Positions 22,249-51,465 of a stretch of DNA of 64,000 nt are shown one piece after another; positions within the stretch are counted from its first letter, which is position 1; each line of letters starts with the position of its first letter. A program made the translations under genes and the position numbers. The notes beneath the pieces were generated by a model. That model was given only the letters and a program-made list of their open reading frames with translations, did no database searches and was not told the DNA's origin. The stretch comes from a virus: the IMG/VR virus record IMGVR_UViG_3300008108_000036. One strand, written 5' to 3'.

Positions 22249-23028
22249 ATGAATGATTTTTCTGACTATATACCTCCAAAACCAAAAGGTCCGTTTCAAT
22301 TAAATGATTTCGCTGTTGTAAAAAATTTTATTCCTAAAGGAGTACAAACGAAAAGTAGTGCTGCACATATAGGAAAAATGGGAACTGTAATTGGATATAA
22401 AAACGTTCCAGGATCTTATTCAAAGTATCTATTGCAGTTCGAAAATGGAGAAAAAAATGCTTATATGCCGAGCTTTTTAAAGGGGCCGTTTGCGAGTAAG
22501 GAAACGGCGCAAAAATATGTAGATGATCCAAATAAATTAATAGAACCTAAAGACATTAGAACAGCAGCTGTTGTATTTGACGACTGGGAAACAAATCAAA
22601 AATTAGAACTAAAACTTAAGAATATACTAACTGATGAATTTTTCTTTAATTGGTTTGATGAACCTTTAATAGCGAAAAGTTCATTCCCAAATGTGATAGC
22701 CTTCAAGCTTGCTGAGTTGCCTGGTTACCCTTATATTAATTTAAAAAGAAGACATTCAGAAAACACAAGACGATTGAAGGGAAATGATAGCAGCTCGAGA
22801 CATGCTACTGGATACGTACTCGACATGCCTTCATTTCATGCATTGAAAAGTGAGAGCTTAGATGGCGCTTGCATTGTTTCTGCTCCTTTGGGGGAACTAG
22901 ATGGTTCAACTCATTGGCGTCATTTTTTTGATGAAGAATATTTAAATGCTTACAAAAAATTTTTTAGTAGAATTCTAAAAGTAAAAGAGCTCGAACAAAA
23001 ACTTCCGGAATTGCAAGGATTATTTTAA
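22249..23028 (+). CDS. C-tagged protein with KOW/SH3-like N-domain shared with 49969..51465
   Basis: G.VIGY..YLLQFENG..LKGPF..KE.A.KY; ends QKLPELQGLF*. Confidence 0.8.
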   Translation: MNDFSDYIPPKPKGPFQLNDFAVVKNFIPKGVQTKSSAAHIGKMGTVIGYKNVPGSYSKYLLQFENGEKNAYMPSFLKGPFASKETAQKYVDDPNKLIEPKDIRTAAVVFDDWETNQKLELKLKNILTDEFFFNWFDEPLIAKSSFPNVIAFKLAELPGYPYINLKRRHSENTRRLKGNDSSSRHATGYVLDMPSFHALKSESLDGACIVSAPLGELDGSTHWRHFFDEEYLNAYKKFFSRILKVKELEQKLPELQGLF

Positions 23029-23032
23029 TATT

Positions 23033-23386
23033 ATGGAAACATATAATTTACAACTTAGCTGTCCTTCAATACTTTCCGCTCCTCAATTAGCTCAAATTTG
23101 GCTAAAAAATATTTTTAATTCTGGATTAAATCAAGCTTTGTTAAAACGCTATGGTTTGCAGCATAAAATAACCAACGACGACGAAAATGGTCCGGTGTTG
23201 GTTGTTTATAATATAAACGAGCAAGATTTTGATAAAATATCAAATTCGTTGTTGTTTAATATTTCGAAGCAAATATCTCCTTCCCAAATTCAACAATATA
23301 TTTCTGCAGAAGATATACAAATTGAAAAAAAGCGTAATTTTGATGAATTAATAAAGAAATTACCAGAATTGAAAGGGATATTTTAA
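23033..23386 (+). CDS. C-tagged hypothetical protein
   Basis: ends KKLPELKGIF*. Confidence 0.8.
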   Translation: METYNLQLSCPSILSAPQLAQIWLKNIFNSGLNQALLKRYGLQHKITNDDENGPVLVVYNINEQDFDKISNSLLFNISKQISPSQIQQYISAEDIQIEKKRNFDELIKKLPELKGIF

Positions 23387-23484
23387 ATACTATCAACAAC
23401 TTCAAAAGCGTCAGAATAATTCTTGTAAAACCATTCTCCTAATACTCCAGCTTGACAGTTTCCGTAAAACAAGATTTTTCTCAT
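23383..23484 (-). pseudogene. truncated WcbI-like gene N-terminus
   Basis: MRKILFYGNCQAGVLGEWFYKNYSDAFEVVDSI*; DNA duplicated at ~28755-28797. Confidence 0.6.
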
Positions 23485-23549
23485 TAATTTTAATTAAGTA
23501 ATATAATGGTTCGGTTATTCTATTTAAATACAAACGTTTTTAAATTTAA

Positions 23550-24250
23550 ATGAAAAACGCTATCCTTATTCATCTTCATCATCAAGATATTTATGGCCTG
23601 AGTTTTGGTCATATTTAAAAAACATTAAAAACGAAAATACAGATATTTACGCTACTGTTCACACAATAGGCACAGAATGGTATGATGATATCAAAACTAA
23701 CTCTACAGAAGTTTTTCTGATAGAAAATAAAGGAATGGATTTTGGTGGGTTTTTATATGCTTATAACAAAATAAAACATATAGATTATAAATCGATAATA
23801 AAATTGCATAGCAAAAAACGACACGCGTATTTTTCACTTTCGCCAGATGAATGGAGAAAAAAATTATATAACTGTTTGATTTTTTCAAAACGTGCATTTG
23901 AAAACGTGACGTCTATGTTTAAATCGAATAATAGATTGTATATGTATGGTTCCAAACGATGTTATAGAAATGAACCATATAATCACCTATGGGTGAAACA
24001 AAATACTCCAGCGATCGATGCTGTAAATGGCATATTGAATTTAAATACTTTGTCGGAATATAAATTCATAGCAGGAAGTATGTTTGCCGTTTCAAAAACC
24101 TATTTAGAATTATTATTTAACAATAAAGAAATGGATATATATAACATATTGCAGCCATATGCCCCCAATAATGGATCTGTAGCTCATGGTTTAGAAAGAT
24201 TGATCGGTGCTAACGTAGATGCTTTTGGAGGAATTATAGAATTAATATGA
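23550..24250 (+). pseudogene. RgpF (rhamnan synthesis F)-like gene with early +2 frameshift; paralog of 26616..27311
   Basis: MKNAILIHLHHQD then gat[at]ttatggcct shift; DFGGF, IKLHSKK, FIAGSMF, AHGLERL. Confidence 0.7.
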
Positions 24251-24912
24251 AAACATTGGATCAAATAGCAATTGAGACAAAAACAGACAAAAGCTCGCAT
24301 GAACACAACTATTGTGTTAAATATGAAAAGTATTTGCCTTTCAAAAGAGATCGAGAAATAAAAATATTAGAAATCGGAGTGTTTAATGGCTCTTCAATAA
24401 ATATGTGGAGGGAATATTACTGCAATTCTTATGTTGTGGGAATAGACATTGATTCTTCCTGTACAAAATACGAAAAAATTGAAAATAATTTGTTTGTGGA
24501 AATAGGTTCACAAATTGATAGTATATTCTTAAGCAAAGTAATAGAAAAGCACGGTCCGTTTGATTTAATCATTGATGATGGTTCTCACATGCAGAGTCAT
24601 ATGATTTTTTCTTTTGAAAAATTATTTCCAGCACTTAAAAATTCAGGGGTATATATTGTTGAGGATACAAGCTGTTCTTACTGGAATGAACATGGAGGCG
24701 GACTAAATAGATCAAATTCTTCTGTAGAATATTTCAAATCCCTTGTAGATCATGTTAATTTTTTTGGTCAGAAATTAAAAGGCGATAACTGGAATTGGAG
24801 AAGAGAAGATTATCACATTGAACGACTAAAAACATATAACCCACACCAATGCAGAATAGATATAGAGTCTATTAATTTTTTAAATAGTACTATTTTAATT
24901 ACAAAAAGATGA
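24247..24912 (+). CDS. class I SAM-dependent (sugar O-) methyltransferase
   Basis: TDK..H.Y, ILEIGV..G.S, DLIIDDGSH, GVYIVED. Confidence 0.85.
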   Translation: MKTLDQIAIETKTDKSSHEHNYCVKYEKYLPFKRDREIKILEIGVFNGSSINMWREYYCNSYVVGIDIDSSCTKYEKIENNLFVEIGSQIDSIFLSKVIEKHGPFDLIIDDGSHMQSHMIFSFEKLFPALKNSGVYIVEDTSCSYWNEHGGGLNRSNSSVEYFKSLVDHVNFFGQKLKGDNWNWRREDYHIERLKTYNPHQCRIDIESINFLNSTILITKR

Positions 24913-25005
24913 AAAATTCTTCTCCATCTTCACTATCAAGATCTTTCTACCATCATTAAAATTAATGGAATCCCTTTGATTAGTTTTGTATAAATAAGTA
25001 TTATA

Positions 25006-25710
25006 ATGAAAGTTGCTACAATTGTTTTTACCTATGGGAAAGCAGAAGAAGTTGTAAAAAGACATCTACCTATTTGGAAGGCATACACAGATGAGCTTAT
25101 GATTGTGTCACCAACAAATGATCCGTGCATAGTCGAAAATATAGACTGTTTAACTCATTCTAAAAGCCAACAATTAGGGCAATTTTCTTTGAGCAGACAA
25201 CTGTTTGGGCTGATTGCAGCTTTGGGTTATAACGCAAATCAATATGTTTTTTTAGAGTATGATGCAATAATGCTCAGAAGACCAGAGCCAAGGCCGATAA
25301 TACAAGGTAATCTTTTTAATCAAAACATTTTTGTTGAACGACAAGAAGAATGGATGAGACAAGGGCATTGTTTTCTTCATTTTCCTTGGATATTTCCAGC
25401 TGACAAATTAAAGTATTTTGTTGATAGAGTTGAGCTGGATCTAAACGATGGTGTTAGTCAAGATATATGGTTGATACAAAAAATTATGGATTTAAACATG
25501 GAAGTTCATAACTTGCTAGGATTGACTCCGACTTCTCCAAATGGAACGGGGGAGGGATTTTCTCAAAACAATATTGATACACCTCAACGAATAGAAAACG
25601 CAGTATATCATGTTAAAAGCGGAGCATACGCTTTACATGGAATAAAAACAAAAGAAGTATTAGAAAAAATATTAGAAGCAGCTAATCAAACTCATTTGTT
25701 ACAATCTTAA
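25006..25710 (+). CDS. putative glycosyltransferase-like protein, paralog of 25830..26552
   Basis: VFLEYDA; near-identical 3' DNA with paralog; TATAAATA upstream. Confidence 0.65.
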   Translation: MKVATIVFTYGKAEEVVKRHLPIWKAYTDELMIVSPTNDPCIVENIDCLTHSKSQQLGQFSLSRQLFGLIAALGYNANQYVFLEYDAIMLRRPEPRPIIQGNLFNQNIFVERQEEWMRQGHCFLHFPWIFPADKLKYFVDRVELDLNDGVSQDIWLIQKIMDLNMEVHNLLGLTPTSPNGTGEGFSQNNIDTPQRIENAVYHVKSGAYALHGIKTKEVLEKILEAANQTHLLQS

Positions 25711-25741
25711 CTTATTAAAGATGCTCTAAAATGATAGAAAA

Positions 25742-25774
25742 AACCTCCCGAAATTAGAAGGAATATTTGTATAA
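25742..25774 (+). pseudogene. orphan C-tag remnant (NLPKLEGIFV*)
   Basis: intergenic aacctcccgaaattagaaggaatatttgtataa. Confidence 0.6.
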
Positions 25775-25829
25775 ACAAATATAATTATTCTAAATAAATA
25801 TATTTCAATTTCATAAAAATAGTTTCGTC

Positions 25830-26615: not shown

Positions 26616-27311
26616 ATGAAAAATGTGATTCTTCTTCATCTCCATTATCAAGATCTATGGCCTGAGTTTTGGTCACATTTAAAAAATATTAAAGACGAGA
26701 ACCTAGATATTATTGCGACTGTCAATACTACTGAAACAGAGTTTTATAAAAACATTAAAGATAATGTAGATGAAGTTTTTTTAATAGAAAATAAAGGGGT
26801 AGATTTTGGTGGATTTATATACGCTTACAAGAAAATTAAAAGTAATTCTTACAAAACCGTAATTAAACTTCACGGTAAAAAAAGAAATAGTTATACCGGT
26901 TTGTGTGCAGAGGAGTGGAGAAAAACTTTATATAATCCTTTAATTCAAAAAGATTGTTATTATAATATGTTAAATTGTTTCGAAAAAGATGAAAAGATAT
27001 TTATGTATGGTTCAAAACGCTGCTTTAGAGAAGAATTAAAATCTCACCCTAATATTGTTGATAACACATCAGCTTTTATAAAAATAAACGACATTTTGGA
27101 TTTATCTGAATTTGAAAAATATGATTTTATAGCTGGTTCTATTTTTGCTGTGTCTAAAAATTATTTAAATGCGTTTTTTCAAAACAAAGAAATAGAAATT
27201 TACGAAATTATGGAAACACAGTTTCCAAACAACGGAACAATTGCTCATGGACTAGAAAGATTAATTGGATCTAATGTATCAGCTTTTGGAGGAAAAATAG
27301 AATTATTATGA
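26616..27311 (+). CDS. RgpF (rhamnan synthesis protein F)-like protein
   Basis: HLHYQDLWPEF, ENKGVDFGGF, KLHGKK, FIAGSIF, AHGLERL. Confidence 0.75.
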   Translation: MKNVILLHLHYQDLWPEFWSHLKNIKDENLDIIATVNTTETEFYKNIKDNVDEVFLIENKGVDFGGFIYAYKKIKSNSYKTVIKLHGKKRNSYTGLCAEEWRKTLYNPLIQKDCYYNMLNCFEKDEKIFMYGSKRCFREELKSHPNIVDNTSAFIKINDILDLSEFEKYDFIAGSIFAVSKNYLNAFFQNKEIEIYEIMETQFPNNGTIAHGLERLIGSNVSAFGGKIELL

Positions 27312-27937
27312 ATCTTTTAGAGCAAGTTACTTTAGTATTAGCTGATTCAGTTCAACCAGAGCTTGCTTTAAGAACAATCGAATACAATTCAAAGTTATTA
27401 AATTTTGGAAAGGTCAAGTTATTAACCAATAAAGATTTAAAAAGTAAGAATATTGAAATTATAACTAATACTGAAATTAATGATCGAGGGGAATATAGTT
27501 GTTTTATTTTAACTAAGCTACACGAGCACATTGATACGTCTCACTGTCTTATAATTCAAACTGATGGATTTATTATTAATCCTGATTTATGGAATTTTGA
27601 TTGGTTGGAATTTGATTATATAGGAGCACCATGGTACGGTGGTCTTGTTGGAAATGGAGGATTTAGCTTAAGAAGTAAGCGAATTTTAAAAATTTGCAGC
27701 ATCTTGTGTTCAGATAAAGGAAATTTATGTAATACTCATGAAGACAATGTAATATGTCGAGCTTTTAGAAAAGAATTAGAAGAAAATTATTGTATAAAAT
27801 TTGCACCGTTTGACATTGCCTCAAAATTTTCACAAGAATATTCCCTTGACAAAACAGAAACAGAATATAAAACTTTTGGTTTTCATGGAAAATTTGAGAA
27901 ATTTAAAAAATACATTAAACGAATTGAAGACAATTAA
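27308..27937 (+). CDS. DUF5672-like putative glycosyltransferase
   Basis: LIIQTDG, FDYIGAPW, VGNGGFSLRSK, ED, A.KFS.E, FGFHG. Confidence 0.8.
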   Translation: MNLLEQVTLVLADSVQPELALRTIEYNSKLLNFGKVKLLTNKDLKSKNIEIITNTEINDRGEYSCFILTKLHEHIDTSHCLIIQTDGFIINPDLWNFDWLEFDYIGAPWYGGLVGNGGFSLRSKRILKICSILCSDKGNLCNTHEDNVICRAFRKELEENYCIKFAPFDIASKFSQEYSLDKTETEYKTFGFHGKFEKFKKYIKRIEDN

Positions 27938-27938
27938 A

Positions 27939-27968
27939 AAATTACCAGAGCTTAAAAGGATATTCTAA
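27939..27968 (+). pseudogene. orphan C-tag remnant (KLPELKRIF*) just past the DUF5672 stop, out of frame
   Basis: aaattaccagagcttaaaaggatattctaa. Confidence 0.65.
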
Positions 27969-28951: not shown

Positions 28952-29542
28952 GTGATGAATAACGATCAAAAATTATTAGAACTTCTTTACGAAAGCATTA
29001 CGGAAAATGCTGACTGTTTGCTTGATGAAGAACAGCTAATTGTTAATCAACTGTCTGAACGCATTGTAAAAGGTCTATATAAAACACTTGCTCCTCCAAA
29101 TCAATTTTATGGTTCTGAGTTTCTAGGAGTATTGTTTAACGCTAAATTAAATAAACTTTTTCTCAGCAAAATATTTTCACATACATCAGAACGACAACTC
29201 GAATCGATTTTTTATGTGTTTAATGAAATAATCCTTCATATATTATACAAATATCTCATACGAATAATCGGCATTGAAACTCCAAAAAGTGTTCGTTTTC
29301 AATCTTTAGAAGATTGGACGAATAGCGTAATTAGAGAAACAACAATTCCTTTTGATGATAAACAACAAGTACTACAAATGGTTAAAAAAACAATTAAAGA
29401 TGCCATTTTATATTTATATAAGGCAGGAGACCCAATACAAAAAAACAATAAAGGACATCCTGAATGGTATGAGTGGAGAAAAGAGAAATTAAAGTTCCAA
29501 GACATTCACAAAAAGTTACCAGAGCTTAAAGGAATATTTTAA
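28952..29542 (+). CDS. N+C-tagged protein (array 1/12), paralog of 33529
   Basis: MNNDQKLLELLYE ... WYEWRKEK..KKLPELKGIF*. Confidence 0.85.
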   Translation: MMNNDQKLLELLYESITENADCLLDEEQLIVNQLSERIVKGLYKTLAPPNQFYGSEFLGVLFNAKLNKLFLSKIFSHTSERQLESIFYVFNEIILHILYKYLIRIIGIETPKSVRFQSLEDWTNSVIRETTIPFDDKQQVLQMVKKTIKDAILYLYKAGDPIQKNNKGHPEWYEWRKEKLKFQDIHKKLPELKGIF

Positions 29543-29544
29543 AA

Positions 29545-30156
29545 ATGAAAGATAAAGATCATAAAAAGCTAGAGTTAATATACGAATCACTTAATGAGCC
29601 TTTTTATTTTATTAAAGAAGAAGAAATTTTCGTAAAAGAATGCGCTAAATATCTTGCTAAAAAAATTATTGAAACCGTAAAAACAAGACCAAAAGCCGTA
29701 CAAAAATATTTAGGATTTTCAATGTATGATATATTTTGGATATATGTACAAACATTTCATCATATTATTCCAGACGAAGTAATGGATAAAATAAATTTAA
29801 AACCACCTATAGCATATTGGTTCGATAATCTATATGAAGGATTTGTTATAAGGCCGTTAGCTCGAAGTATAACTGTAGACAAATTAAATGGCTTATGTCT
29901 TGTTATAAAAGATCCTTTTAATATAAAAAAACCTGAGGTTGTTCCAATAAAAGACGACAAAATACTTGCTAGTAAACTAGAAGACGCATTGAAGTATCGC
30001 ATTAAATTTGCATTTACAGACAATGAAACGATTAAAGACTTGAAGAGAGAAAGAGCTAACGGTAATTGGTGTGGAGAAGGATTTGCTTGGAGAGTGGAAC
30101 AAGCTAAATTTGGAAAGTTAATAGACAAGCTTCCGGAAATAGAAGGAGTATTTTAA
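29545..30156 (+). CDS. N+C-tagged protein (2/12), paralog of 31899
   Basis: MKDKDHKKLELIYE ... DKLPEIEGVF*. Confidence 0.85.
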   Translation: MKDKDHKKLELIYESLNEPFYFIKEEEIFVKECAKYLAKKIIETVKTRPKAVQKYLGFSMYDIFWIYVQTFHHIIPDEVMDKINLKPPIAYWFDNLYEGFVIRPLARSITVDKLNGLCLVIKDPFNIKKPEVVPIKDDKILASKLEDALKYRIKFAFTDNETIKDLKRERANGNWCGEGFAWRVEQAKFGKLIDKLPEIEGVF

Positions 30157-30684
30157 ATGAATAGAGACCAAAAACTTTTAGAGAATCTATATCAGAGTAT
30201 TGCTGAAAACGAAGAATTACCGTATACTTCAAAATTAACTAAAAAAGAAGCAGACTATATAAACATAGTAACGGATATATCTCTACAAAGACTTTTAGAA
30301 TCTCCTAGGAAGTATATTAGTTTTGCAGAATTAGATAAGTGCTTTAGCACAATATTTTCTAATTTAAATTACGAACAAAGCAATGCTGTGTTTAATTTTT
30401 TTAAGCATATTTTATCTAAAGTTTTAACTGCTAAAAACAGTTCATTGTATGCATATATGCATCACTGGAGGGAAATTCCTAAAACTGAAGAGGAACAACA
30501 GACAGTCAAACTCAAATTAATAGAGGAAATAACAACATTGCTTTGTCAAGAATTTGAGAAGTTTGAAAAATATGGTGTTCCCTCATATTTTTCTTATCAT
30601 CAACTACTTCAAATATATGTGGATAATAGAAAGATACAAAATCTCGAAACCAAACTTCCAGAATTAAAAGGATTATTTCAATGA
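30157..30684 (+). CDS. N+C-tagged protein (3/12)
   Basis: MNRDQKLLENLYQ ... TKLPELKGLFQ*. Confidence 0.85.
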   Translation: MNRDQKLLENLYQSIAENEELPYTSKLTKKEADYINIVTDISLQRLLESPRKYISFAELDKCFSTIFSNLNYEQSNAVFNFFKHILSKVLTAKNSSLYAYMHHWREIPKTEEEQQTVKLKLIEEITTLLCQEFEKFEKYGVPSYFSYHQLLQIYVDNRKIQNLETKLPELKGLFQ

Positions 30685-31301
30685 GCTCGGATCAAAAAAG
30701 TTTACAATATCTTTATGAGCAAATTACAGAAGGAGAGACTCGCATTCTGAAATTAGAAGTAGAGTATGCAAAAATAATTGCTAGTCATGCAATTAACGAT
30801 CTTACTGAGTCAGTGAAAAGACGAATTGAGAACAAAGGCAAGATTCGAGGAGAAAGAATAACTAATTTCATAGGACCAAAGGTGGAATATACAAAGCATC
30901 TTTTTAACAATGAGCCTGCTCTAATAAGTGTAGTATACGATTCTTTAGTCCGCTTAGATGTTTTTTCGACATTGGTTTATTTTGAAGCTCGAAGAGCTTA
31001 TAATCTAGAAGCTAAAGATTTAAAAGTAATTATTATACATCCGACAATGATAGTTCAATATAGCGGCGAGGCAAATAAGGATTCCACACCGTTTTTAGAC
31101 AAACAAACTTTAGAAGAAAAGCTTCAAAAAACCATAGAAGAAACATTTGTAGTTCGTTATAACGAATGTATCAAACCTACTGCTCATCCTACATCGAGGT
31201 TTATACCTCCAAGCAGAAAACCCTGGGCTGAGTGGAGAAAAGAAAAGCTTAAGTATGAAAAGCTTACAACAAAATTGCCAGAACTAGAAGGAGTCTTTTA
31301 A
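30681..31301 (+). CDS. N+C-tagged protein (4/12)
   Basis: MSSDQKSLQYLYE ... WAEWRKEK..TKLPELEGVF*. Confidence 0.85.
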   Translation: MSSDQKSLQYLYEQITEGETRILKLEVEYAKIIASHAINDLTESVKRRIENKGKIRGERITNFIGPKVEYTKHLFNNEPALISVVYDSLVRLDVFSTLVYFEARRAYNLEAKDLKVIIIHPTMIVQYSGEANKDSTPFLDKQTLEEKLQKTIEETFVVRYNECIKPTAHPTSRFIPPSRKPWAEWRKEKLKYEKLTTKLPELEGVF

Positions 31302-31898
31302 ATGAAACGCGGAGATCAAAAGCCATTAAAGGAATGTCGTCAACCACTTGATGAAAGCACTAAAGAGCCTTTGTATTTTGGCCCGAAACAAAAAAAACAA
31401 ACATGGATGAGTTGGCTAAATGATTTACCACATAAAATACATGAAGACGGTTCAGTTAGTGTAGATGGTGATGTTATTTTTCATAGCAATTTTGGTGAGG
31501 TCAAAATGGATAGAGTACCCTTCAATTTCAGAGAAGTAACTGGACAATATAGTTGTTCAGGATTAGAGCTTACTTCTCTGGAAGGGTCTCCACGTATTGT
31601 TACAGGAACATTCGATTGTACGGAAAATAATCTTACTTCTCTAAAAGGAGCACCAGAAATAGCAAAAGGAAACTTTCGTTGTCGTGCAAATCGGCTTACA
31701 TCTCTTGTTGGAGCTCCAAGAGAAGTTGGAAAAGGGTTTTATTGTCACCATAACGAAAAAATAACTTCTTTAGAAGGAGCACCAGAGGTGGTTAAAGAAA
31801 CGTTTACATCCGATCAATTTGAAGACGAAGATTATAGAGATTATATAAAATTTCATAAACTAAGGGATAAACTTCCAGAGTTAGAAGGAATATTTTAA
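31302..31898 (+). CDS. C-tagged (degenerate N-tag) LRR-like repeat protein (5/12)
   Basis: repeats N.LTSL.G.P..V.G.F.C; ends DKLPELEGIF*. Confidence 0.85.
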   Translation: MKRGDQKPLKECRQPLDESTKEPLYFGPKQKKQTWMSWLNDLPHKIHEDGSVSVDGDVIFHSNFGEVKMDRVPFNFREVTGQYSCSGLELTSLEGSPRIVTGTFDCTENNLTSLKGAPEIAKGNFRCRANRLTSLVGAPREVGKGFYCHHNEKITSLEGAPEVVKETFTSDQFEDEDYRDYIKFHKLRDKLPELEGIF

Positions 31899-32516
31899 AT
31901 GAGAGATAATGATCAAAGAAAGTTAGAATTAATATATGAATCTCTTAACGATAGTTTTCTTATTAAAGAAGAAAAAATATTAGTCAAAGAGTATTCTAAG
32001 TATCTTGCTATAAATGTTGTAAATGAAGCAGCAAGATTTCAAGAAAAAATAGACGAAAATCCTCAACAATATTTTCCTTGTACTATGTATAATTTTTTCT
32101 GGTTATATTTAAAGGAAATTCCTGAAACCATTTTATCAAAACTGAATTTACATTCTGATACTTTAAAATGGGTTGCGGAGCTTTATGAAATTTATGTAAT
32201 TAAAGACATGACGCACGAAAGTGCTGAAGCAACTATTATAAATGAAGCTGTATGTTTAATTATTAAATCTCCATTTAATCGAAAAAAGCAAACGATTATT
32301 TCTCTAAAAGACGACGTCGAAGTTATTGCTGGTAAATTAGAAGACTGTTTTGCACAATTTATTCAATTTGTATTTACTGATAAACGTATAATTCAAAAAC
32401 TAGAAAAAGAAGAATCACTTAATACTTGGGTAGGGAGAGGTTTTGCTTGGAGAAAAGAACGAGTAAAGTATGATAAGATGAGTAAAAAACTTCCTGAATT
32501 AGAAGAAATATTTTAG
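31899..32516 (+). CDS. N+C-tagged protein (6/12), paralog of 29545
   Basis: MRDNDQRKLELIYE ... GFAWR..KKLPELEEIF*. Confidence 0.85.
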   Translation: MRDNDQRKLELIYESLNDSFLIKEEKILVKEYSKYLAINVVNEAARFQEKIDENPQQYFPCTMYNFFWLYLKEIPETILSKLNLHSDTLKWVAELYEIYVIKDMTHESAEATIINEAVCLIIKSPFNRKKQTIISLKDDVEVIAGKLEDCFAQFIQFVFTDKRIIQKLEKEESLNTWVGRGFAWRKERVKYDKMSKKLPELEEIF

Positions 32517-33068
32517 ATGAAAACAAGAGATCAAAAGCTTTTAGAAGAAGCTTACCTTAAAGTCAAACGAAGAAAGTCTCCAGAGAGTATATATGATTAT
32601 AATGTTGTAGTTGATTATATCGAAAATGGATGCAAAGGAGATTTAATAATAAACGGAAGTTATCTTACAAAACTCCCAGAAGAACTTCATTCCGTAGAAG
32701 GAGATTTTCACATGATGAGTTCAAGCATTAAATATCTTCCTAAAAATTTGAAATACGTTGGAGGAGCTCTTTTTCTCATGGAAAGTCCTATACAATTTCT
32801 TCCTGATGATCTTACTGTTGGAAAAGATCTTAGCTTGTTTAAATGTGAAAAAATTAAAATCCTTCCTAAAAACCTAAAAGTAGGAAAAGATTTGATATTG
32901 CAAGACAGTTCAATTACTTCTCTAAATCAATTTTCTCCAGGAATTGAAGTTGAAGGCGACGTTTACTCTTATGATTTTACTTCAGAAGAAGCAAAAGCCC
33001 ACATAAAAGAATTGAATAAAATAAGTAAAATGGAACAACATTTACCGGAATTAAAGGGAATATTTTAA
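32517..33068 (+). CDS. N+C-tagged LRR-like protein (7/12), paralog of 1681
   Basis: MKTRDQKLLEEAY; LP.NL.VG.DL.L repeats; QHLPELKGIF*. Confidence 0.85.
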   Translation: MKTRDQKLLEEAYLKVKRRKSPESIYDYNVVVDYIENGCKGDLIINGSYLTKLPEELHSVEGDFHMMSSSIKYLPKNLKYVGGALFLMESPIQFLPDDLTVGKDLSLFKCEKIKILPKNLKVGKDLILQDSSITSLNQFSPGIEVEGDVYSYDFTSEEAKAHIKELNKISKMEQHLPELKGIF

Positions 33069-33071
33069 ATA

Positions 33072-33485
33072 ATGAAAAAATACAACTCGGTCAAAAATCA
33101 CTTCTTATCGATTGAACCAGTTGCTGCACATGTAAAAATATGCAATAAAATCTTTCCCATTAAAGTTTGGCAGCTTTTTGATCACGATGTTGCTGCTTTT
33201 GCAAAAGTTGAGGAATTCAAATCTTTAGAAGAATTTGAATCAAAAATGGGTTCCGTCAAAAACTGGCAACCTGTAGTATTAATAACAAAACTTCAATTAG
33301 ACAAGTTTTATAAGGATAGTTCAACTTACTCAACAGATCAACATCATTTCTATATTGTTGAGCCGACTTCCGAATTTAAGAGTCTTGATGACACAAAAAA
33401 GCCTGAGGTGTATAATGATTATTTAATTCAAGATGAATATGCAGCATTAAAAGATAAATTACCTGAACTAAAAGGTATATTTTAA
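33072..33485 (+). CDS. C-tag-only protein (8/12), related to 2323
   Basis: VEPTSEF..KPEVY.DY.I.D..DKLPELKGIF*. Confidence 0.8.
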   Translation: MKKYNSVKNHFLSIEPVAAHVKICNKIFPIKVWQLFDHDVAAFAKVEEFKSLEEFESKMGSVKNWQPVVLITKLQLDKFYKDSSTYSTDQHHFYIVEPTSEFKSLDDTKKPEVYNDYLIQDEYAALKDKLPELKGIF

Positions 33486-33528
33486 GAAACTGATCGCTCT
33501 TTGCTATAACTTTCTAATAAATACAAAA

Positions 33529-34128
33529 GTGAGAAACAAAGATTGTAAAACGTTAGAATTATTGTACGAGGATATTACAAATCAGTATGTTTTATTGGAT
33601 GAGGAAAAGCAATTTATTGAGCAATTAGCTACCAATATTACAAGCAACATATATAAAAACATATCTCCTCATACTCGTTTTTACGGAACAGAGCGTCTCG
33701 ATAATATAGTCCATTCGAAATTTACAAATGATATAAATTTTGGTTCAGCATTCACTAATATAACTCAAGAACAAAGACGCGCAATTGCTTTTGTGTTTGA
33801 ACAATCAATTTTAATTGTGTTATACTGCTATTTGGTTGCAATAGAAGGGCGAGATCGACCGGAAAGTGTTTGCTTTAAAACAGTTGATCAATGGATGGAC
33901 AGAGTTCATGATAAAGAAATAAAAGTACCTTACGAAAATAAAAAAGAAGTATTTGAAATGATGAAAAAAACTATTATAAACTTGTTGTTTTTTGTCTATA
34001 ATAGTTACGCCGATCCAAACGGAATGTATCATAACGAAACGGTAAGGATATGGTATGAATGGAGAAAAGAAAAAATTAGATACAAAAAACTTGTAAATAA
34101 GTTACCCGAATTAGAAGGTGTATTTTAA
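33529..34128 (+). CDS. N+C-tagged protein (9/12), paralog of 28952
   Basis: MRNKDCKTLELLYE ... NKLPELEGVF*; ATAAATA 33516-33522. Confidence 0.85.
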   Translation: MRNKDCKTLELLYEDITNQYVLLDEEKQFIEQLATNITSNIYKNISPHTRFYGTERLDNIVHSKFTNDINFGSAFTNITQEQRRAIAFVFEQSILIVLYCYLVAIEGRDRPESVCFKTVDQWMDRVHDKEIKVPYENKKEVFEMMKKTIINLLFFVYNSYADPNGMYHNETVRIWYEWRKEKIRYKKLVNKLPELEGVF

Positions 34129-34191
34129 GCTATGCGAACGTCTTCGAGCAATTAGAGTATTTATAAAAAGTAATAATTACTATTGTATAAC

Positions 34192-34812
34192 ATGATCAAA
34201 TTATATATAAACGATCAAAAAACGTTAGAACTTCTTTATGAGCAGGTTTCTAATAATTTGATAAATGTCTTGCTTCCTGAAGAAGAGAGATTTGTTAATC
34301 TTGTTGCGGAGAAATATACTAAAGAAGTCTTTATTGCAGTAAAACGAATGGAAATTACAACGTCTGGATTTTTTTTAGATCAAATTTTTTTTACTAATCC
34401 TATAAAATATGATTTAGACGTGTTAAAAGTCGAGGACATCAAATTAAAAGAGGATGTTCGTGAAACAATCGACGATTTAATTTTAAAGCAAATAAACTCA
34501 AAGCTAATTTATTTGCACAAAACAAAACGAGGGCCGTTTATAGTTTTTAAAGACATTGAAATCTTGAGTGATTTGCACACTAAAGAAAATTCAAGCTTTT
34601 TAATAATCAAAGAAAACGAACAACTAATAACAACCTATGTTGAGCGGTTATTGAGACAGCTTATAATATATTTTTATAATATTTTAATAACATCTAGCAA
34701 GTCGGTACCACATTCTCTCGAAAATTTAAATTGGGTTAAGTGGCGGACAAAAAAGCTTAAACTTAAAAACCTCAGACAAAAACTTCCGGAATTAGAAGGA
34801 GTGTTTTCGTGA
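34192..34812 (+). CDS. N+C-tagged protein (10/12)
   Basis: ..INDQKTLELLYE ... QKLPELEGVFS*; start uncertain. Confidence 0.8.
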   Translation: MIKLYINDQKTLELLYEQVSNNLINVLLPEEERFVNLVAEKYTKEVFIAVKRMEITTSGFFLDQIFFTNPIKYDLDVLKVEDIKLKEDVRETIDDLILKQINSKLIYLHKTKRGPFIVFKDIEILSDLHTKENSSFLIIKENEQLITTYVERLLRQLIIYFYNILITSSKSVPHSLENLNWVKWRTKKLKLKNLRQKLPELEGVFS

Positions 34813-35159
34813 AAGATCAAATATTAATTGCAGAAGTCTATTATCATGTTTTAGAAGAAAGAGCTAAAAAAACGTATAATGAATTATTAGCTCTTTTTAA
34901 AGAGCTTACCAATAACGAAAATCCTCAACCAGGAGACGAATATATATATGAATATAATAATTCGATTTATAAAATTGTTAAAACAAAAGACGGATTTCAA
35001 TGGGGAAATTGGTGGCAAGGTCAACTATGGGGTAGGTTTATAACTCAGCACTCTACGAGTGACGTAAGGGATAATGAAAAGCTGATAGAGTTTCTTAAAG
35101 CAACAAAAGTCAGGGAATTGGAAAAAAAGCTTCCTGAAATTGAAGGATTTTTTAGATGA
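34809..35159 (+). CDS. N+C-tagged protein (11/12)
   Basis: MKDQILIAEVY ... KKLPEIEGFFR*. Confidence 0.8.
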   Translation: MKDQILIAEVYYHVLEERAKKTYNELLALFKELTNNENPQPGDEYIYEYNNSIYKIVKTKDGFQWGNWWQGQLWGRFITQHSTSDVRDNEKLIEFLKATKVRELEKKLPEIEGFFR

Positions 35160-35737
35160 AAACTAATGATCAAAAAAGCTTAGAACGACTTTACGAGCAA
35201 GTTACTAATAATGATTTTATGCTACTTAAAGAGGAAGACGTGTTGTTTGATGCAATAAGTTCTTTAATCACTAAAGAAGTTCAAAAAGTATTGAGAACCG
35301 TTGGAGATCTTAACGGTTATAGTCATTCCAGCTTGGGACAAATAGTACACAGTTTAAGTAATACTATTAATGCTAAAGACTTTGTCTGTAAGTATTTTCC
35401 TTCAGAAATTAAAGAACAAGCTGCTTTCGTTTATTTTGCGGGTATAATTTATTATATTGTAAGAAATAAAGTATTTCTTAAAAGATATTACGAACCGGAA
35501 GACATGTTGTGCTTCGAATTTGAAACTTCTGGTAGAGTCACAAATGTCAAGAGAAGAGTCGACGTTAAAGACAAAGAAAAGTTTAAACAATCTCTTAAGG
35601 AATGGTTTGTCAATCAATTAGAATTTATGTATGCGAGTTTTGCTCATGAATATCCAGAATGGGATAAATGGAGAGAAAATGAATTAAAATACGAGAAACT
35701 AAAGCAGAAGCATTCAGAACTAAAAGGAATTTTTTAA
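35156..35737 (+). CDS. N+C-tagged protein (12/12)
   Basis: MKTNDQKSLERLYE ... WDKWRE..QKHSELKGIF*. Confidence 0.85.
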   Translation: MKTNDQKSLERLYEQVTNNDFMLLKEEDVLFDAISSLITKEVQKVLRTVGDLNGYSHSSLGQIVHSLSNTINAKDFVCKYFPSEIKEQAAFVYFAGIIYYIVRNKVFLKRYYEPEDMLCFEFETSGRVTNVKRRVDVKDKEKFKQSLKEWFVNQLEFMYASFAHEYPEWDKWRENELKYEKLKQKHSELKGIF

Positions 35738-47464: not shown

Positions 47465-47735
47465 CTTTTAATGAATTTTTAAACTCTTTTTCTCGTTCGA
47501 TTGCTATTTGTAATTGGCGTTTAATTGTTTCAAGAGCCTCTTCATATGTAGAGCATTCTATTTCAATATCAGATAGAATATACCCATAGTGTTCTACTAT
47601 ATAAGTAGGTGCATATCCATATGACCATTTTGTATTAATATACCAATGGCAATCCTTGTCTTTATGATGGGAAGAGCCTAATAACTCGTACCATTCATTC
47701 GTTAATTCTGTAATCCGTTCGATTATTTCATTCAT
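47445..47735 (-). CDS. phage hypothetical protein
   Basis: HHKDKDCHWYI..WSYG; start re-assigned to ATG 47735. Confidence 0.65.
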   Translation of the reverse strand: MNEIIERITELTNEWYELLGSSHHKDKDCHWYINTKWSYGYAPTYIVEHYGYILSDIEIECSTYEEALETIKRQLQIAIEREKEFKNSLKDEDESW

Positions 47736-47754
47736 GATGAATAAATATTTATAT

Positions 47755-47907
47755 ATGAGCAAGCGTCTCTCTGTTTTTGAAAAAGACAAGCTCGAGTTAT
47801 GGATAGGGAGACATAACCGCAAACTTGAACTTCTACGAACTATAGTTAATGTGATTGCTTTGCTTTTAACTTTGTGCGTCTTTTTAAAAATGTTTAATTT
47901 TTTATAA
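47755..47907 (+). CDS. small membrane protein missed by the ORF track (50 aa)
   Basis: MSKRLSVFEKDKLELWIGRHNRKLELLRTIVNVIALLLTLCVFLKMFNFL*; ATAAATA upstream. Confidence 0.55.
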   Translation: MSKRLSVFEKDKLELWIGRHNRKLELLRTIVNVIALLLTLCVFLKMFNFL

Positions 47908-48081
47908 TTTTATTTAGACGTAGAATTTACTAACCCTTGAATCTGCTCGATGGATAAGTTAGGGTTACTTTCTTGAATATGGGTTGTGATTTGATGTTTA
48001 CGGATGTTATTACATGCCATTCTCCAACACAACATTAAAGCCCATATTATGATAATCGAGATTATTAAAATTAATATGTTT

Positions 48082-48390
48082 TTACGAGGTTGCATTTAAT
48101 AAAGAAATAATTTCGTTCGTTTCTCCAATTGCGTATTGATATTCATGTATTTTAATTCTTAATTCAGAAACATCTGCAATATATGGTTTAGAATGGTTGG
48201 TTAAAACCAGTCTTGCATTAACTTTAAAACGATCAGTTACTTCTTCTATTATATACCCATATCCATCAATTTCCCAGCCATGATGATACACTTTAAATTT
48301 TCGAATAATTTTACCAAATTTGTTTTGGATTTGTTGCTCAATGGATTCCATATAATTTAGCGTTGAAAGTAAAATACGTCCGTCATCCAA
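48082..48390 (-). CDS. hypothetical protein
   Basis: GWEIDGYG..LVLTNH. Confidence 0.6.
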   Translation of the reverse strand: MDDGRILLSTLNYMESIEQQIQNKFGKIIRKFKVYHHGWEIDGYGYIIEEVTDRFKVNARLVLTNHSKPYIADVSELRIKIHEYQYAIGETNEIISLLNATS

Positions 48391-48595
48391 TTGTTATAAG
48401 CCCACTTGTAAAAATAATCAAAATAATCCTCAAATAGTTTCGTATACTCTGTCAACTCTATATTGTGAGTTCTATCTCTATATTCTTTGCATATATTACG
48501 TATATGAAGATTATCAATTTCAGCTAAAGGAAGTGTCTCCAAAAAAAGTTTTTGAGATTCAGATACCACTAAATGCTTGTCTAGTTCTTTAAACG

Positions 48596-48943
48596 TCATT
48601 TTGATGGTTCATCACTAATGATTTCGTAAGAAATTTGTTCGCTTGGATCATAAAACTCGCCGCAGTAATTAATATCTAAATCGAAATCTTTGGTCTTAAA
48701 TTCGTCTAGTTTGATTTCATATTTGTCGATCATTTCATCATAAGTACGTTTAAAATCAGATAAATAATGCGAGAAATCATCTACGCGAGGATCGTCACAA
48801 TTGAAAATATAATCAAATAAATAATCTTGACCAATCTTGTTTAAGTTTAACTCATCAAGTAAACGGTTGAAATATAGGTCTTGAACTTTTTGTAGCTCGT
48901 TAATGAATGCTTTGACTTTGTGAATGGAATCTTCTGGATGCAT
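48596..48943 (-). CDS. hypothetical acidic protein
   Basis: ORF in run. Confidence 0.6.
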   Translation of the reverse strand: MHPEDSIHKVKAFINELQKVQDLYFNRLLDELNLNKIGQDYLFDYIFNCDDPRVDDFSHYLSDFKRTYDEMIDKYEIKLDEFKTKDFDLDINYCGEFYDPSEQISYEIISDEPSK

Positions 48944-48963
48944 AAAACTATTTTACCACATTT

Positions 48964-49962
48964 TTAGTTCTGCTCAACATTTAACTCTTTGTGCTTTAAA
49001 GGATGTTCTAATAAAACTCTAGATACATAATCCGTTATACTTGAGTTATTTAGTTGTGCGTTAGTTTTAACAAAACAAATGAGAATATTATATAAGATTT
49101 GATCCATTTGAGTTCTATTAGCAAAAACGGATTGAGTGTGTGTAGATAATTGTGAAAAAGTTATCTTTTCATAAGGAGTCGAATTAAATTTTAAATTTAT
49201 TTTTAGATAATCAGGAATTATGTTGATGCTTATTCCCAACGAAAACTGAAAAATACTTTCTAATAATAAATCAACTTCGGAAATATGATGCATAACAAAC
49301 GAATTTAAAATATTAATGGTTGAGATTAAATTAGTTAGTGTTAGTATTTGTGTGTTGCTTACATCAGAAAATTCTCTAATCAGCCAACTATCCTCCAATT
49401 GTTCCGAGCAAATATAATCTTCTAACTCAGACGCATTTACATGGTTATAGTGGATTTCATGTTTAGATGCATACGATTTTAGATAATAAAACATAGAGCA
49501 ACAGCGGTCAAACGGTTCTCTGAAAATTAAAAATTTCTTTATAATTTTGTTGCGAATAAAAGGTTTAAGAAAAAACTGATGTTGCCTAAGTCCTAATGGC
49601 TCAACTACTATCCCAAGTAACATTAAATCTAGCAAAAACTGATCATCGATATATTTGAATTCTATTTTATAATTTGTACCTCCTATGTGTTGTAAAATCT
49701 GCTTGTTCATTGTTTGCATACGGCATTTGATATCAAGAATAGCAATCCTAAGTACTGTATTCGAGTTGTGAAGGACGGTTAACATCACCATCGAATTTTC
49801 ATTAAACTCTCTAGTTTCGTTTACTACGATTGATCTCCAATATCCTAATAAAACGTAAAACCAACTTAAAACATAAGTCCCGGCATTTTTAGGAATATGA
49901 TAGAATATAGGTAAATTAGGTGTAGGAATTTGACAATTTATCATTGATGTCCAACTTAACAA
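48964..49962 (-). CDS. sulfotransferase-fold protein
   Basis: FYHIPKNAGT (5'-PSB-like) and FREPFDR..SMFYYL (3'-PB-like). Confidence 0.7.
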   Translation of the reverse strand: MLSWTSMINCQIPTPNLPIFYHIPKNAGTYVLSWFYVLLGYWRSIVVNETREFNENSMVMLTVLHNSNTVLRIAILDIKCRMQTMNKQILQHIGGTNYKIEFKYIDDQFLLDLMLLGIVVEPLGLRQHQFFLKPFIRNKIIKKFLIFREPFDRCCSMFYYLKSYASKHEIHYNHVNASELEDYICSEQLEDSWLIREFSDVSNTQILTLTNLISTINILNSFVMHHISEVDLLLESIFQFSLGISINIIPDYLKINLKFNSTPYEKITFSQLSTHTQSVFANRTQMDQILYNILICFVKTNAQLNNSSITDYVSRVLLEHPLKHKELNVEQN

Positions 49963-49968
49963 TTTAAG

Positions 49969-51465
49969 TTAAAAAATTCCATCAAGTTCTGGAAGTTTTT
50001 CTCTTAATCCTCTAAACTGAATTTCTTCATCAATTTGTTCTTGAGTATATCCTTCGATGGTATATTTTGATGCTTTAGGCAAACCAGACAACGACTTTGG
50101 TTTTTTATGAACGTACAATTGTCCTAATATTGTTGTATTGCTACATTCGAATGAATCTAATTCAAACTTAACAATGACTTTATTTAAATTATCAGGAAGC
50201 CCTTTTAACGTTTTAAGTGTTGCTCCACAACTTTCGTTAAGAAATAAAGTAATATTAGAAGGACACCCATCTAATGTCTCTAATCGCAATAACCTTGAGT
50301 TGTCGGTAAGCATACTGTTGTATGTGCCAATTTCTAGTTCTTTTAAGTCGTGAAAAGTCTCTAGTCCTTTTAGGCTTTTAATTAATGGAGCTTTATATAA
50401 TTCTATCCTATCGACTTTTGTATTATTATCTGTTGAAAGAGATACAAGTTGATCTCCTTGAATATGAATTTTAGGAACAGATAATGGACAATTATTTAAA
50501 TTTGTTGCAACAGCATCATTGAACGAAAACACATAAGATTTTAGATGATACTCTCTAATTAAACTTCTGTCTTCGGGTTTGATAAAATTTAAGCTGTCAA
50601 AATCAATTGAGTTAGTTAAAACTTTTCGCTCTCCATCGGTTTTTAATTCGCCGCATATTTCAAGTAAGTCTTTTGCTGTGAGTTTGTCTAACGACAAAAG
50701 TTTATTAAAATTTTCAAATTTAGGTTTTATATTTACTTTTTCTGATTCTTTTTGTATTTTAGCATATGAGGCTTGAGTTAATTTAAAAAGTTTATTTACA
50801 AGAGCTAATGGCTTCTGTTCGATATTTAAATCTTGTTTATTATTTAGAAAAAATTTTAAACTAGGAAAAATTATTTGATATGGTGAGTAATCTTTAGTTA
50901 GTAGTTTTTTTGTTAAAGGATCGTTGTAACGTATAATAGAAAATTGATTAAATCCTTGTTTTTTTAAATTTGTATTACAATGGCTTTCAAAGGATACTTC
51001 TGAGTCAGTTCTAACAGCTAGCACTGTTATGATTTGAGGTTTATATTCCGCTGTCTTAAAACTAATTGGAGTTTCTAGCCATTTGAAATTGAAAGGCTCT
51101 TTTGTATAAATATCTTTAAGCGTTTTTTCAAGTTTGGGAAGCGTTTTATATTCTGTTGAAAATGCGGTAGACTTAAGCCTTAAATCATCAATCGAATCTT
51201 CTATGTTAACGTTATTTCGATATTTTAATGCAATTTCTTTCGTTTTATATGGTCCTCTTAAATACTTCTTTTTTGTTACGAATAATGTACCGTTTTCAAA
51301 TTCAATTAAATAGTCTCCAGCTCCGTAATATTTAGATCTGTAGCCAACAACTTGACCCAATTGCCCTCCATAGCTTCCATATCCCTTTATAATCCAATCC
51401 CCAATAGCAAATTTCGAATTCTTTGGAATTGGTGACGCGTAAAAATTTTTATTTAAGACTCTCAC
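49969..51465 (-). CDS. C-tagged protein: KOW-like N-domain plus LRR-like C-domain
   Basis: N-domain shared with 22249; SLKGL repeats; ends EKLPELDGIF*. Confidence 0.8.
   Translation of the reverse strand: MRVLNKNFYASPIPKNSKFAIGDWIIKGYGSYGGQLGQVVGYRSKYYGAGDYLIEFENGTLFVTKKKYLRGPYKTKEIALKYRNNVNIEDSIDDLRLKSTAFSTEYKTLPKLEKTLKDIYTKEPFNFKWLETPISFKTAEYKPQIITVLAVRTDSEVSFESHCNTNLKKQGFNQFSIIRYNDPLTKKLLTKDYSPYQIIFPSLKFFLNNKQDLNIEQKPLALVNKLFKLTQASYAKIQKESEKVNIKPKFENFNKLLSLDKLTAKDLLEICGELKTDGERKVLTNSIDFDSLNFIKPEDRSLIREYHLKSYVFSFNDAVATNLNNCPLSVPKIHIQGDQLVSLSTDNNTKVDRIELYKAPLIKSLKGLETFHDLKELEIGTYNSMLTDNSRLLRLETLDGCPSNITLFLNESCGATLKTLKGLPDNLNKVIVKFELDSFECSNTTILGQLYVHKKPKSLSGLPKASKYTIEGYTQEQIDEEIQFRGLREKLPELDGIF

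What the first reader, a model, noticed from the sequence alone, without database searches (positions are those of the whole stretch)
22249..51465. C-terminal KLPELEGIF tag: a free-C-terminus docking motif of unknown partner
SEEN: always at the extreme C-terminus, with at most one extra residue, preceded by a Lys-rich amphipathic helix (e.g. WRKEKLKYEKL). It also occurs on proteins without the N-tag and on the opposite strand 14 kb from the array (49969). There is no TM segment. ESTABLISHED comparisons: T4 gp43/gp33/gp55 bind the gp45 clamp by a C-terminal (S/T)LDFL(F/L), and the bacterial beta-clamp motif is QL(S/D)LF. INFERENCE: a short linear motif recruiting many proteins to one hub (clamp, portal/ejection channel, shell protein, chaperone or protease).
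Basis: partly seen in the sequence, partly recalled or inferred. Interest (0 to 1): 0.75.

Follow-up and report, generated by a model that had tools for sequence, protein, structure and literature searches.

The report
End-tag of phage cargo protein modules
An uncultured T4-like water phage ends at least 17 otherwise unrelated small proteins with the same 16-residue tail (…K-L-P-E-L-x-G-I-F). In its relatives the same tail is the joint between modules of long polyproteins, always followed by a capsid-protease-type cut site, so it looks like a new "module end" address label for proteins carried in the phage head.

Summary
Seventeen intact ORFs in the window end in K-L-P-E-[LI]-x-G-[IVL]-F, followed by a stop or by one extra residue; 200 codon shuffles gave none. 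Two decayed "ghost" tags also exist. Synonymous codons vary freely, so selection acts on the peptide, not on DNA or a ribosome-binding site. The proteins carrying the tag fall into at least seven unrelated groups (LRR-like, SH3-like, ferredoxin-like, helical and others), and none matches Pfam.

The new result comes from relatives. Among 190 unique tag instances, 118 are C-terminal. The other 71 are internal joints in polyproteins of up to 1,224 aa, and 69 of those 71 are followed by Glu and then a small residue (…G-I-F-E|S). That fits the T4 gp21 prohead-protease motif (L/I)-x-E. Complete polyproteins start with T4 CTS-like leaders ending Φ-x-E.

My best reading is that the tag marks the end of each head-packaged cargo module, and that it is made C-terminal either by a stop codon or by cleavage. 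Its binding partner is unknown. The clamp idea is weakened, because the lineage's own DNA polymerase ends in a T4-type clamp peptide, not the tag.

The scan noted this tag before only on this same window, not on other DNA.

The parts
1603..2322 (+). LRR-like protein. The likely true start is Met27 at 1681, which gives the N-tag MKSKDTQLLEEAYE. C-tag NLPEIKGLF at 2293-2319.
2323..2823 (+). N-tag plus C-tag protein; KLPELEGVF at 2794-2820. No coupled downstream gene.
22249..23028 (+). C-tag-only protein with an SH3-like N-domain shared with 49969-51465. KLPELQGLF at 22999-23025.
23033..23386 (+). C-tag-only 117-aa protein; KLPELKGIF at 23357-23383. In orthologues the body is 35-82% identical, while the 16-aa tail matches at 14-15 of 16 positions.
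25742..25768 (+). Ghost tag NLPKLEGIF(V*) in an intergenic 14-codon frame downstream of gene 25006-25710.
27939..27965 (+). Ghost tag KLPELKRIF* (Gly changed to Arg), in a different frame from the DUF5672 gene 27308-27937 that it overlaps.
28952..35737 (+). Head-to-tail array of 12 tagged genes: 28952-29542, 29545-30156, 30157-30684, 30681-31301, 31302-31898, 31899-32516, 32517-33068, 33072-33485, 33529-34128, 34183-34812, 34809-35159 and 35156-35737. Each ends in the tag, and most begin with the DQK-type N-tag. Bodies are helical families A and B, LRR-like and others.
49969..51465 (-). 498-aa protein with an SH3-like N-domain, an LRR-like C-half and C-tag KLPELDGIF (49972-49998). Orthologues in relatives carry a CTS-like leader (MSLFKQLFKKTLITE, MTRFKQAFIDSLLTE).

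Best explanation
The tag is the C-terminal end-label of modular cargo proteins that this T4-like phage lineage loads into its prohead. Each module, roughly 110-210 aa and of varied fold, ends in K-[FY]-x-x-[LM]-x-x-K-L-P-E-L-x-G-I-F.

In this window the modules are separate genes, so a stop codon leaves the tag at the C-terminus. Most of these genes carry their own N-terminal leader. In relatives several modules are fused into one polyprotein with a single T4-CTS-like leader, and every joint reads ...G-I-F-E|S. That is a (L/I)-x-E site for a gp21-type prohead protease, so cleavage would free each module with the tag at its end plus one Glu. TAA and GAA differ by one base, so the fused and split forms can interconvert by a single mutation.

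The tag itself is an exposed linear peptide that most likely docks each module onto one common partner. There is one leader per chain but one tag per module, which suggests the tag acts per module and at or after processing. The partner could be the scaffold core, the inner shell, the protease, the exit channel or the tags of other modules.

Shown: the motif, its modularity, peptide-level selection, the joint rule and the leaders. Inferred: head packaging, cleavage by the prohead protease, and docking.
For: 1. Seventeen terminal copies against 0 in 200 shuffles.
2. Synonymous codons vary at every position, and GGA usage is the same at terminal and internal copies.
3. Bodies fall into at least seven unrelated groups. 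None of 65 database representatives has a Pfam domain.
4. An HMM search of 1.84 billion representatives gave 65 hits, including polyproteins with 3-8 tags. These were verified as uninterrupted ORFs in DNA: L007 1-1068, L021 8648-12322 and 12347-14059, L024 9446-12454.
5. Of 190 unique instances, 118 are terminal and 71 internal. Of the internal ones, 69 are followed by Glu; the next residue is S in 37, N in 9, K in 7 and A in 6. The T4 gp21 motif is L/I-X-E (PMC9026906).
6. Complete polyproteins start MSTFNKEYRSILE|G, MSLFNQIYEKFKISE|S or MTFNKHFQKSKVFLQE|S. These have an aromatic residue at position 4 and another at 7 or 8, then Φ-x-E. This matches the key positions of the T4 CTS: targeting at 4 and 7, processing at 8 and 10 (PMC9026906 section 2.6).
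7. AF2 gives confident cores with pLDDT dips at the tags.
8. Between orthologues the tails are conserved far better than the bodies, and ghost tags outside ORFs decay.
9. The stop codon is TAA in 58 of 63 cases and the joint Glu codon is GAA in 26 of 29.
10. Modules are inserted or deleted as cassettes bounded by tags.
11. There is precedent for C-terminal propeptides in head proteins: T4 Alt and gp21 and SPN3US gp245, whose C-terminal propeptide is proposed to target the protease into the prohead (PMC7411985).
Against: No virion or proteomic data exist. I could not read the prohead protease, scaffold, capsid or portal gene of this lineage: the window and the two related IMG/VR contigs lack them. 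Presence of a gp21 homologue therefore rests on other readers' 'T4-like' notes.

The tagged proteins have pI 5.5-9 and are not uniformly basic like the T4 internal proteins. Some tagged proteins have no recognisable leader. A 16-residue conserved motif is far more than gp21 needs for cutting, and its partner is unidentified. (L/I)-x-E is a short motif, so the fit could be coincidental, although the Glu at 69 of 71 joints is not.
Confidence: 0.45

Rival explanations
1. The tag acts after injection, or in the cytoplasm. It docks every module onto one hub in the infected cell, such as a host protease, chaperone, polymerase or membrane site, or a phage hub. This would make it a shared handle on a library of variable binders, comparable to F-box/PRANC tails on poxvirus ankyrin proteins.
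For: There is one tag per module, even where a single leader serves a whole polyprotein. Split genes nearly always add their own N-leader, which suggests the tag does not itself do the targeting. The bodies are binder-like folds such as LRR-like and SH3-like. Some tagged proteins have no leader.
Against: No partner has been identified. The motif has no match in the PDB or in any paper. A tolerated extra residue after Phe argues against a strict carboxylate-reading pocket.
Confidence: 0.2
2. The tag is only an extended cleavable linker or processing signal for a protease, either gp21-type or a dedicated one. In this reading it has no docking role, and the copies at the ends of split genes are retained for C-terminal trimming at L-P-E.
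For: Two (L/I)-x-E sites, L-P-E and I-F-E, lie within the joint. The Glu of L-P-E is invariant. The joints are flexible in the AF2 model.
Against: Terminal copies with nothing downstream to release are conserved as strictly as internal ones. gp21 needs only three residues, yet 16 are conserved here. Ghost copies decay quickly, so the terminal copies are under selection.
Confidence: 0.15
3. The tags bind each other, or bind the N-tags, and so bundle the modules into a multi-protein internal body. This would be a non-covalent equivalent of the polyprotein.
For: The tag has an amphipathic K/E-rich helix with a hydrophobic face at positions -14, -11, -7, -4, -1 and 0. A self-complementary motif would be kept nearly identical across all paralogues. 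Fused and split forms coexist.
Against: Internal polyprotein modules lack N-tags yet keep the C-tag. N-only and C-only proteins both exist.
Confidence: 0.1
4. The tag is a sliding-clamp (gp45) binding peptide.
For: It is a C-terminal hydrophobic and acidic peptide. Its L-x-x-L-x-x-I-F spacing resembles a PIP box and T4 gp33 ...TLDFLL.
Against: The DNA polymerase of a related tagged phage ends in ...TDLFELFGDN, a T4/RB69-type clamp peptide, not the tag. The carriers are ORFans in a hyperplastic accessory region, not replication or transcription proteins. The joint and cleavage rule and the CTS-like leaders point to the head.
Confidence: 0.04
5. The conservation is at the DNA level, reflecting an RBS, promoter or recombination site for the next gene, or is simply the shared end of one paralogous family.
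For: GAAGGAG inside the tag lies at Shine-Dalgarno distance from many downstream ATGs. The tags bound shuffled cassettes.
Against: Third codon positions vary freely. GGA usage is the same where no RBS is needed. Eighteen of 63 terminal tags have no start codon nearby. The bodies are unrelated.
Confidence: 0.03

Closest known systems
T4 internal proteins (IPI-III, Alt) with the N-terminal capsid targeting sequence, cut by prohead protease gp21 (PMC9026906, PMC3012670)
   Same: Hypervariable, mostly ORFan proteins in a T4-like phage share only short terminal peptides. The leaders have aromatic residues and end in (L/I)-x-E. Alt and gp21 also lose C-terminal propeptides.
   Different: Here a second, 16-residue C-terminal tag is present and is better conserved than the leader. 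Relatives fuse up to 8 modules into one polyprotein with tag-plus-Glu joints. T4 has no such tag: the C-termini of gp21, gp22, gp67, gp68 and Alt were checked and differ. The tagged proteins are not uniformly basic.
C-terminal propeptide of giant-phage prohead protease (SPN3US gp245), proposed to target it into the prohead (PMC7411985); also the C-terminal capsid-binding tails of HK97 protease and of herpesvirus and P22 scaffolds (from my own knowledge)
   Same: A C-terminal peptide acts as the address into the procapsid and is removed or exposed by the maturation protease.
   Different: Those tails belong to one protease or scaffold protein per virus. Here the same tail sits on at least 17 unrelated cargo proteins.
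Polyvalent proteins of phages and conjugative elements (Iyer et al. 2017, PMC5512222)
   Same: Large multi-module polypeptides are predicted to be packaged, injected with the DNA and released by proteolysis.
   Different: Polyvalent proteins combine known enzymatic domains and often carry their own peptidase. These polyproteins have no Pfam domain, no embedded peptidase and a uniform repeated joint.
Encapsulin cargo-loading peptides (from my own knowledge)
   Same: A short C-terminal peptide shared by diverse cargo binds the inside of an HK97-fold shell.
   Different: The sequences are unrelated, there is no encapsulin gene, and binding to the shell is not shown here.
Clamp-binding C-terminal peptides of T4 gp43, gp33 and gp55
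   Same: An extreme C-terminal acidic and hydrophobic peptide ending in an aromatic or aliphatic residue.
   Different: The lineage's polymerase keeps its own distinct clamp peptide. The carriers and their genomic context do not fit.

Membership tests
T4-type CTS-addressed head internal proteins | An N-terminal 10-19-aa leader with targeting aromatics at about positions 4 and 7, ending in (L/I)-x-E. | tested here: met
   All complete polyproteins and several single proteins start M-x-x-F-x-[KQ]-x-[YF]...Φ-x-E. The DQK-type N-tag of the window's genes ends in L-Y-E or L-L-E. Criteria are taken from PMC9026906.
T4-type CTS-addressed head internal proteins | Cleavage by a gp21-type prohead protease encoded by the same phage. 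| not testable with these tools
   No whole genome is held. The related contigs G001 and G002 lack PF03420, PF07068 and PF07230. Only the sequence fit of the sites is shown.
T4-type CTS-addressed head internal proteins | Presence in the virion and ejection with the DNA. | not testable with these tools
   This needs virion proteomics.
T4-type CTS-addressed head internal proteins | Diverse bodies that share only the addressing peptide and lie in a hyperplastic region. | tested here: met
   At least seven unrelated body groups. There is cassette gain and loss between relatives. No Pfam match.
Clamp (gp45)-binding C-terminal peptides | The same motif is carried by the phage's own DNA polymerase and late-transcription factors. 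| tested here: not met
   The DNA polymerase of relative G001 ends in ...TDLFELFGDN. gp33 and gp55 of the lineage were not available.
Clamp (gp45)-binding C-terminal peptides | Physical binding to the clamp. | not testable with these tools
Polyvalent proteins (Iyer 2017) | Several domains with disparate known biochemical activities in one polypeptide, often with an embedded peptidase. | tested here: not met
   The proteins are multi-module, but 0 of 65 have a relevant Pfam domain. The one confidently modelled module has a generic ferredoxin-like fold.
Translational-coupling or RBS element | Conservation at the nucleotide level that depends on a downstream start codon. | tested here: not met

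The most novel reading that the evidence does not exclude
The tail is a second, C-terminal addressing code of T4-like phages. In this reading it is a universal docking peptide that fixes each protease-released cargo module to one site in the head, either the inner shell (as in encapsulins) or the portal and exit channel. It would let these phages carry and inject a shuffled arsenal of dozens of effector modules, encoded either as gene arrays or as cleavable polyproteins.
Probability: 0.3. Interest if true: 0.85.

Novelty: new variant of a known kind. Interest (0 to 1): 0.68.

Why it matters
If the reading holds, a clade of freshwater T4-like phages packages a much larger and more modular protein cargo than T4 does. 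This window alone has 17 tagged genes, and single ORFs in relatives hold up to 8 modules. The cargo would use a two-part code: a leader per chain and an end-tag per module.

That would extend the CTS and gp21 paradigm. It would give a simple sequence rule for finding injected-protein candidates in metagenomes. It would offer a natural cleavable-linker and tag system for loading foreign proteins into phage heads. It would also provide a pool of ORFan modules (LRR-like, SH3-like, ferredoxin-like) to test as anti-defence effectors. The one-base TAA/GAA switch between the fused and split forms is a neat case of gene fission and fusion around a functional peptide.

Tried and rejected
- DNA and protein searches of cultured phage records found no relative of the array, of the 498-aa tagged protein or of a polyprotein.
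- Pfam and PHROGs gave nothing for any tagged protein.
- The tail profile has no match in the PDB, and no paper contains the motif.
- I looked for the hub in relatives. The IMG/VR contigs G001 (124 kb) and G002 (57 kb) contain no gp21, gp23, gp20 or gp45 family match, and metagenome records cannot be searched by handle. No candidate partner of this lineage could therefore be read.
- No whole genome is held for the window.
- The T4 gp23 propeptide contains L-P-E-I and K-I-F-E-N, and T4 gp21 contains IEGIF. However, a tag HMM does not pick out either one in the 58 kb of T4 that I scanned, so I treat these as coincidence.
- The C-termini of T4 Alt, gp21, gp22, gp67 and gp68 do not resemble the tag.
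- Broad DNA patterns in IMG/VR mostly gave chance hits in other frames. Only two IMG/VR contigs truly carry the system.
- Fold searches of the polyprotein model gave only generic ferredoxin-like matches at Z about 9, and nothing in BFVD.
- TATAAATA- and TAAATA-like motifs lie 4-10 nt upstream of many tagged-gene starts. I did not test their enrichment in this AT-rich DNA, so I do not use them as evidence.


Full report
**What is in the window.** The window is AT-rich (31% GC). It has no close relative among cultured phage records. It carries phage genes such as an RnlA-type RNA ligase beside many sugar-modification genes. Other readers of the same genome call it an uncultured freshwater T4-like phage. 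I confirmed this only in part: a related contig has a family-B DNA polymerase with a T4-type C-terminal peptide next to a UvsX-like gene.

**The observation.** A six-frame scan finds K-L-P-E-[LI]-x-G-[IVLF]-F at the extreme end of 17 intact ORFs. Twelve of them form a head-to-tail array at 28952-35737. Two lie at 22249-23386 and two at 1603-2823. One lies on the other strand at 49969-51465.
- Fourteen stop right after Phe, and three carry one extra residue.
- The pattern occurs 17 times, against 0 in 200 codon shuffles.
- Two further copies are ghosts: NLPKLEGIFV* in a 14-codon intergenic frame at 25742-25768, and KLPELKRIF* at 27939-27965 in a different frame from the DUF5672 gene it overlaps.
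- The tags use all four Pro codons, six Leu codons and both Lys and Glu codons, so selection is on the peptide.
- The conserved unit is 16 residues long: K-[FY]-x-x-[LM]-x-x-K-L-P-E-L-[EK]-G-I-F.

**The tag is modular.** With both ends trimmed, the 17 proteins fall into at least seven groups with no detectable similarity between groups. These include LRR-like solenoids, an SH3-like N-domain, two helical families and several singletons. None has a Pfam domain, and there is no TM segment. AF2 of the LRR-like protein 32517-33068 gives a confident solenoid core. Both the N-tag and the C-terminal tail are at low confidence, with a helix followed by an unstructured end. Between orthologues the bodies are 25-48% identical in most pairs, yet the last nine residues match at 6-8 positions.

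**The key new result.** A profile of the last 32 residues was searched against 1.84 billion protein representatives and gave only 65 hits, so this is a narrow lineage. Twelve or more of the hits are long proteins with 3-8 copies of the tag inside them. I verified these as uninterrupted ORFs in DNA from IMG/VR and JGI/ENA metagenomes. Examples are L021 8648-12322 (1,224 aa, 8 tags), L021 12347-14059, L024 9446-12454 and L007 1-1068.

Pooling everything gives 190 unique instances:
- 118 are terminal: 98 are followed by a stop and 20 carry one extra residue.
- 71 are internal. Of these, 69 are followed by Glu, and the next residue is Ser (37), Asn (9), Lys (7) or Ala (6).

So the tag is always followed either by the end of the protein or by ...G-I-F-E|S.

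T4 prohead protease gp21 cuts after Glu in the motif L/I-X-E (PMC9026906), and I-F-E fits it. Every complete polyprotein also begins with a leader such as MSTFNKEYRSILE|G or MSLFNQIYEKFKISE|S. These leaders have an aromatic residue at position 4 and another at 7 or 8, then Φ-x-E. In the T4 capsid targeting sequence MKTYQEFIAE, positions 4 and 7 are needed for targeting and positions 8 and 10 for processing (PMC9026906 section 2.6).

The single-module genes of the window instead carry the DQK-type N-tag, which also ends L-Y-E or L-L-E. The stop after the tag is TAA in 58 of 63 cases, and the joint Glu is GAA in 26 of 29. One base change therefore separates a fused form from a split one. Alignment of polyproteins shows whole modules gained and lost between tags. 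AF2 of the polyprotein P0007 gives a confident ferredoxin-like first module, with pLDDT falling to 35-42 exactly across the tag and joint. Its fold matches are generic.

**Interpretation.** The most economical reading is that these proteins are cargo of the prohead in the T4 sense. A leader brings each chain into the core, a gp21-type protease removes the leader and cuts the joints, and each released module ends in the tag.

There is one leader per chain but one tag per module. Split genes nearly always add their own leader. Together these argue that the tag does something different from the leader, and that it does so per module, at or after processing. I think the most likely role is docking onto a common partner. 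C-terminal addressing has precedents in head assembly: T4 Alt and gp21 lose C-terminal propeptides, and the C-terminal propeptide of the SPN3US protease is proposed to target it into the prohead (PMC7411985). The polyprotein form parallels the 'polyvalent proteins' predicted to be injected and proteolytically released (PMC5512222). Here, though, there are no known domains and no embedded peptidase.

**What remains inferred.** I could not read a prohead protease, scaffold, capsid, portal or clamp gene of this lineage. Packaging, cleavage and the partner are therefore all untested. The tagged proteins are not uniformly basic, and some lack any leader.

**Rival readings.**
- Docking on a hub inside the infected cell is the main rival. 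It fits the per-module logic and the binder-like folds.
- A pure cleavable-linker role does not explain the strict conservation of terminal copies that have nothing to release, nor the decay of the ghost copies.
- Tag-tag or tag-N-tag bundling is possible but was not tested.
- The clamp idea is weakened because the lineage's own polymerase ends ...TDLFELFGDN (compare T4 gp33 ...TLDFLL).
- DNA-level or RBS explanations are rejected as sole causes.
- Resemblances to the T4 gp23 propeptide and to a gp21 pentapeptide did not survive a profile test.

**Novelty.** No paper, PDB chain, Pfam or PHROG family contains the motif. Only two IMG/VR contigs and about 20 metagenome contigs carry it. It is best filed as a new variant of the T4 internal-protein and CTS system, with an added C-terminal module tag and cleavable cargo polyproteins.

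Noticed in passing
window 25742-25768 and 27939-27965: Two decayed 'ghost' tags lie outside intact tagged ORFs, next to glycosyltransferase-type genes (DUF5672, RgpF-like). They look like leftovers of tagged cassettes that were replaced, which suggests recombination at cassette boundaries.
   Followed up: partly
window 33516-33531, 51466-51490 (-), 6934-6956, 6900-6915 (-); also L021 12330-12346 and L020 1350-1365: A TATAAATA-, AATAAATA- or TAAATA-like (T4 late-promoter-like) motif sits only 4-10 nt upstream of the start codon of many tagged or leader-bearing genes. The start is often GTG, and there is no room for a Shine-Dalgarno sequence. These may be leaderless or very short-leader late transcripts. 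Enrichment was not tested.
   Followed up: partly
L033 1387-1806 (contig Ga0214921_10012180): A 139-aa LRR-like ORF with a perfect 16-aa tag lies in a low-GC patch (35%) of a 43-54% GC contig. The rest of the contig looks cellular: Ser/Thr kinase, PP2C, VWA, SAM-LRR-FGE-sulfatase and an OGG-like gene. This may be capture of a phage cargo module by a bacterium, perhaps inside a defence-type island.
   Followed up: partly
window 5800-6198: A 132-aa predicted lipoprotein (lipobox FFTGC) with conserved Cys and His residues is 70-78% identical in two relatives. In one relative it sits directly beside the tagged array. It has no Pfam match.
   Followed up: partly
window 8401-8931: A 176-aa Cys-rich protein of unknown family is about 80% identical in two relatives, far better conserved than its neighbours.
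   Followed up: no
window 17931-17999 (-): An N-tag-like start (KKIKDQILLKQVYEQISQ...) runs into a stop after 22 codons, just upstream of ORF 16905-17798 (-). It may be a frameshifted or decayed N-tagged gene.
   Followed up: no
window 10725-15059: A 1,444-aa protein with eight PATR (autotransporter passenger) repeats lies in a phage context. A 432-aa relative lies next to the array in L016. It may be a fibre or adhesin.
   Followed up: no
L021 15827-17179, L007 3105-4448, L019 11113-13149: Untagged 450-680-aa proteins next to the arrays also start with CTS-like leaders ending Φ-x-E|S: MKFSKSLNSLYHEVKKSIVNE|S and MRKFDDYVKQILFE|M. The leader code therefore extends beyond the tagged family.
   Followed up: no
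P0014 (844 aa): A two-module fusion in which the second module keeps its DQK-type N-tag ten residues after the ...GIFE|N joint. It looks like a recent fusion of two split genes.
   Followed up: no
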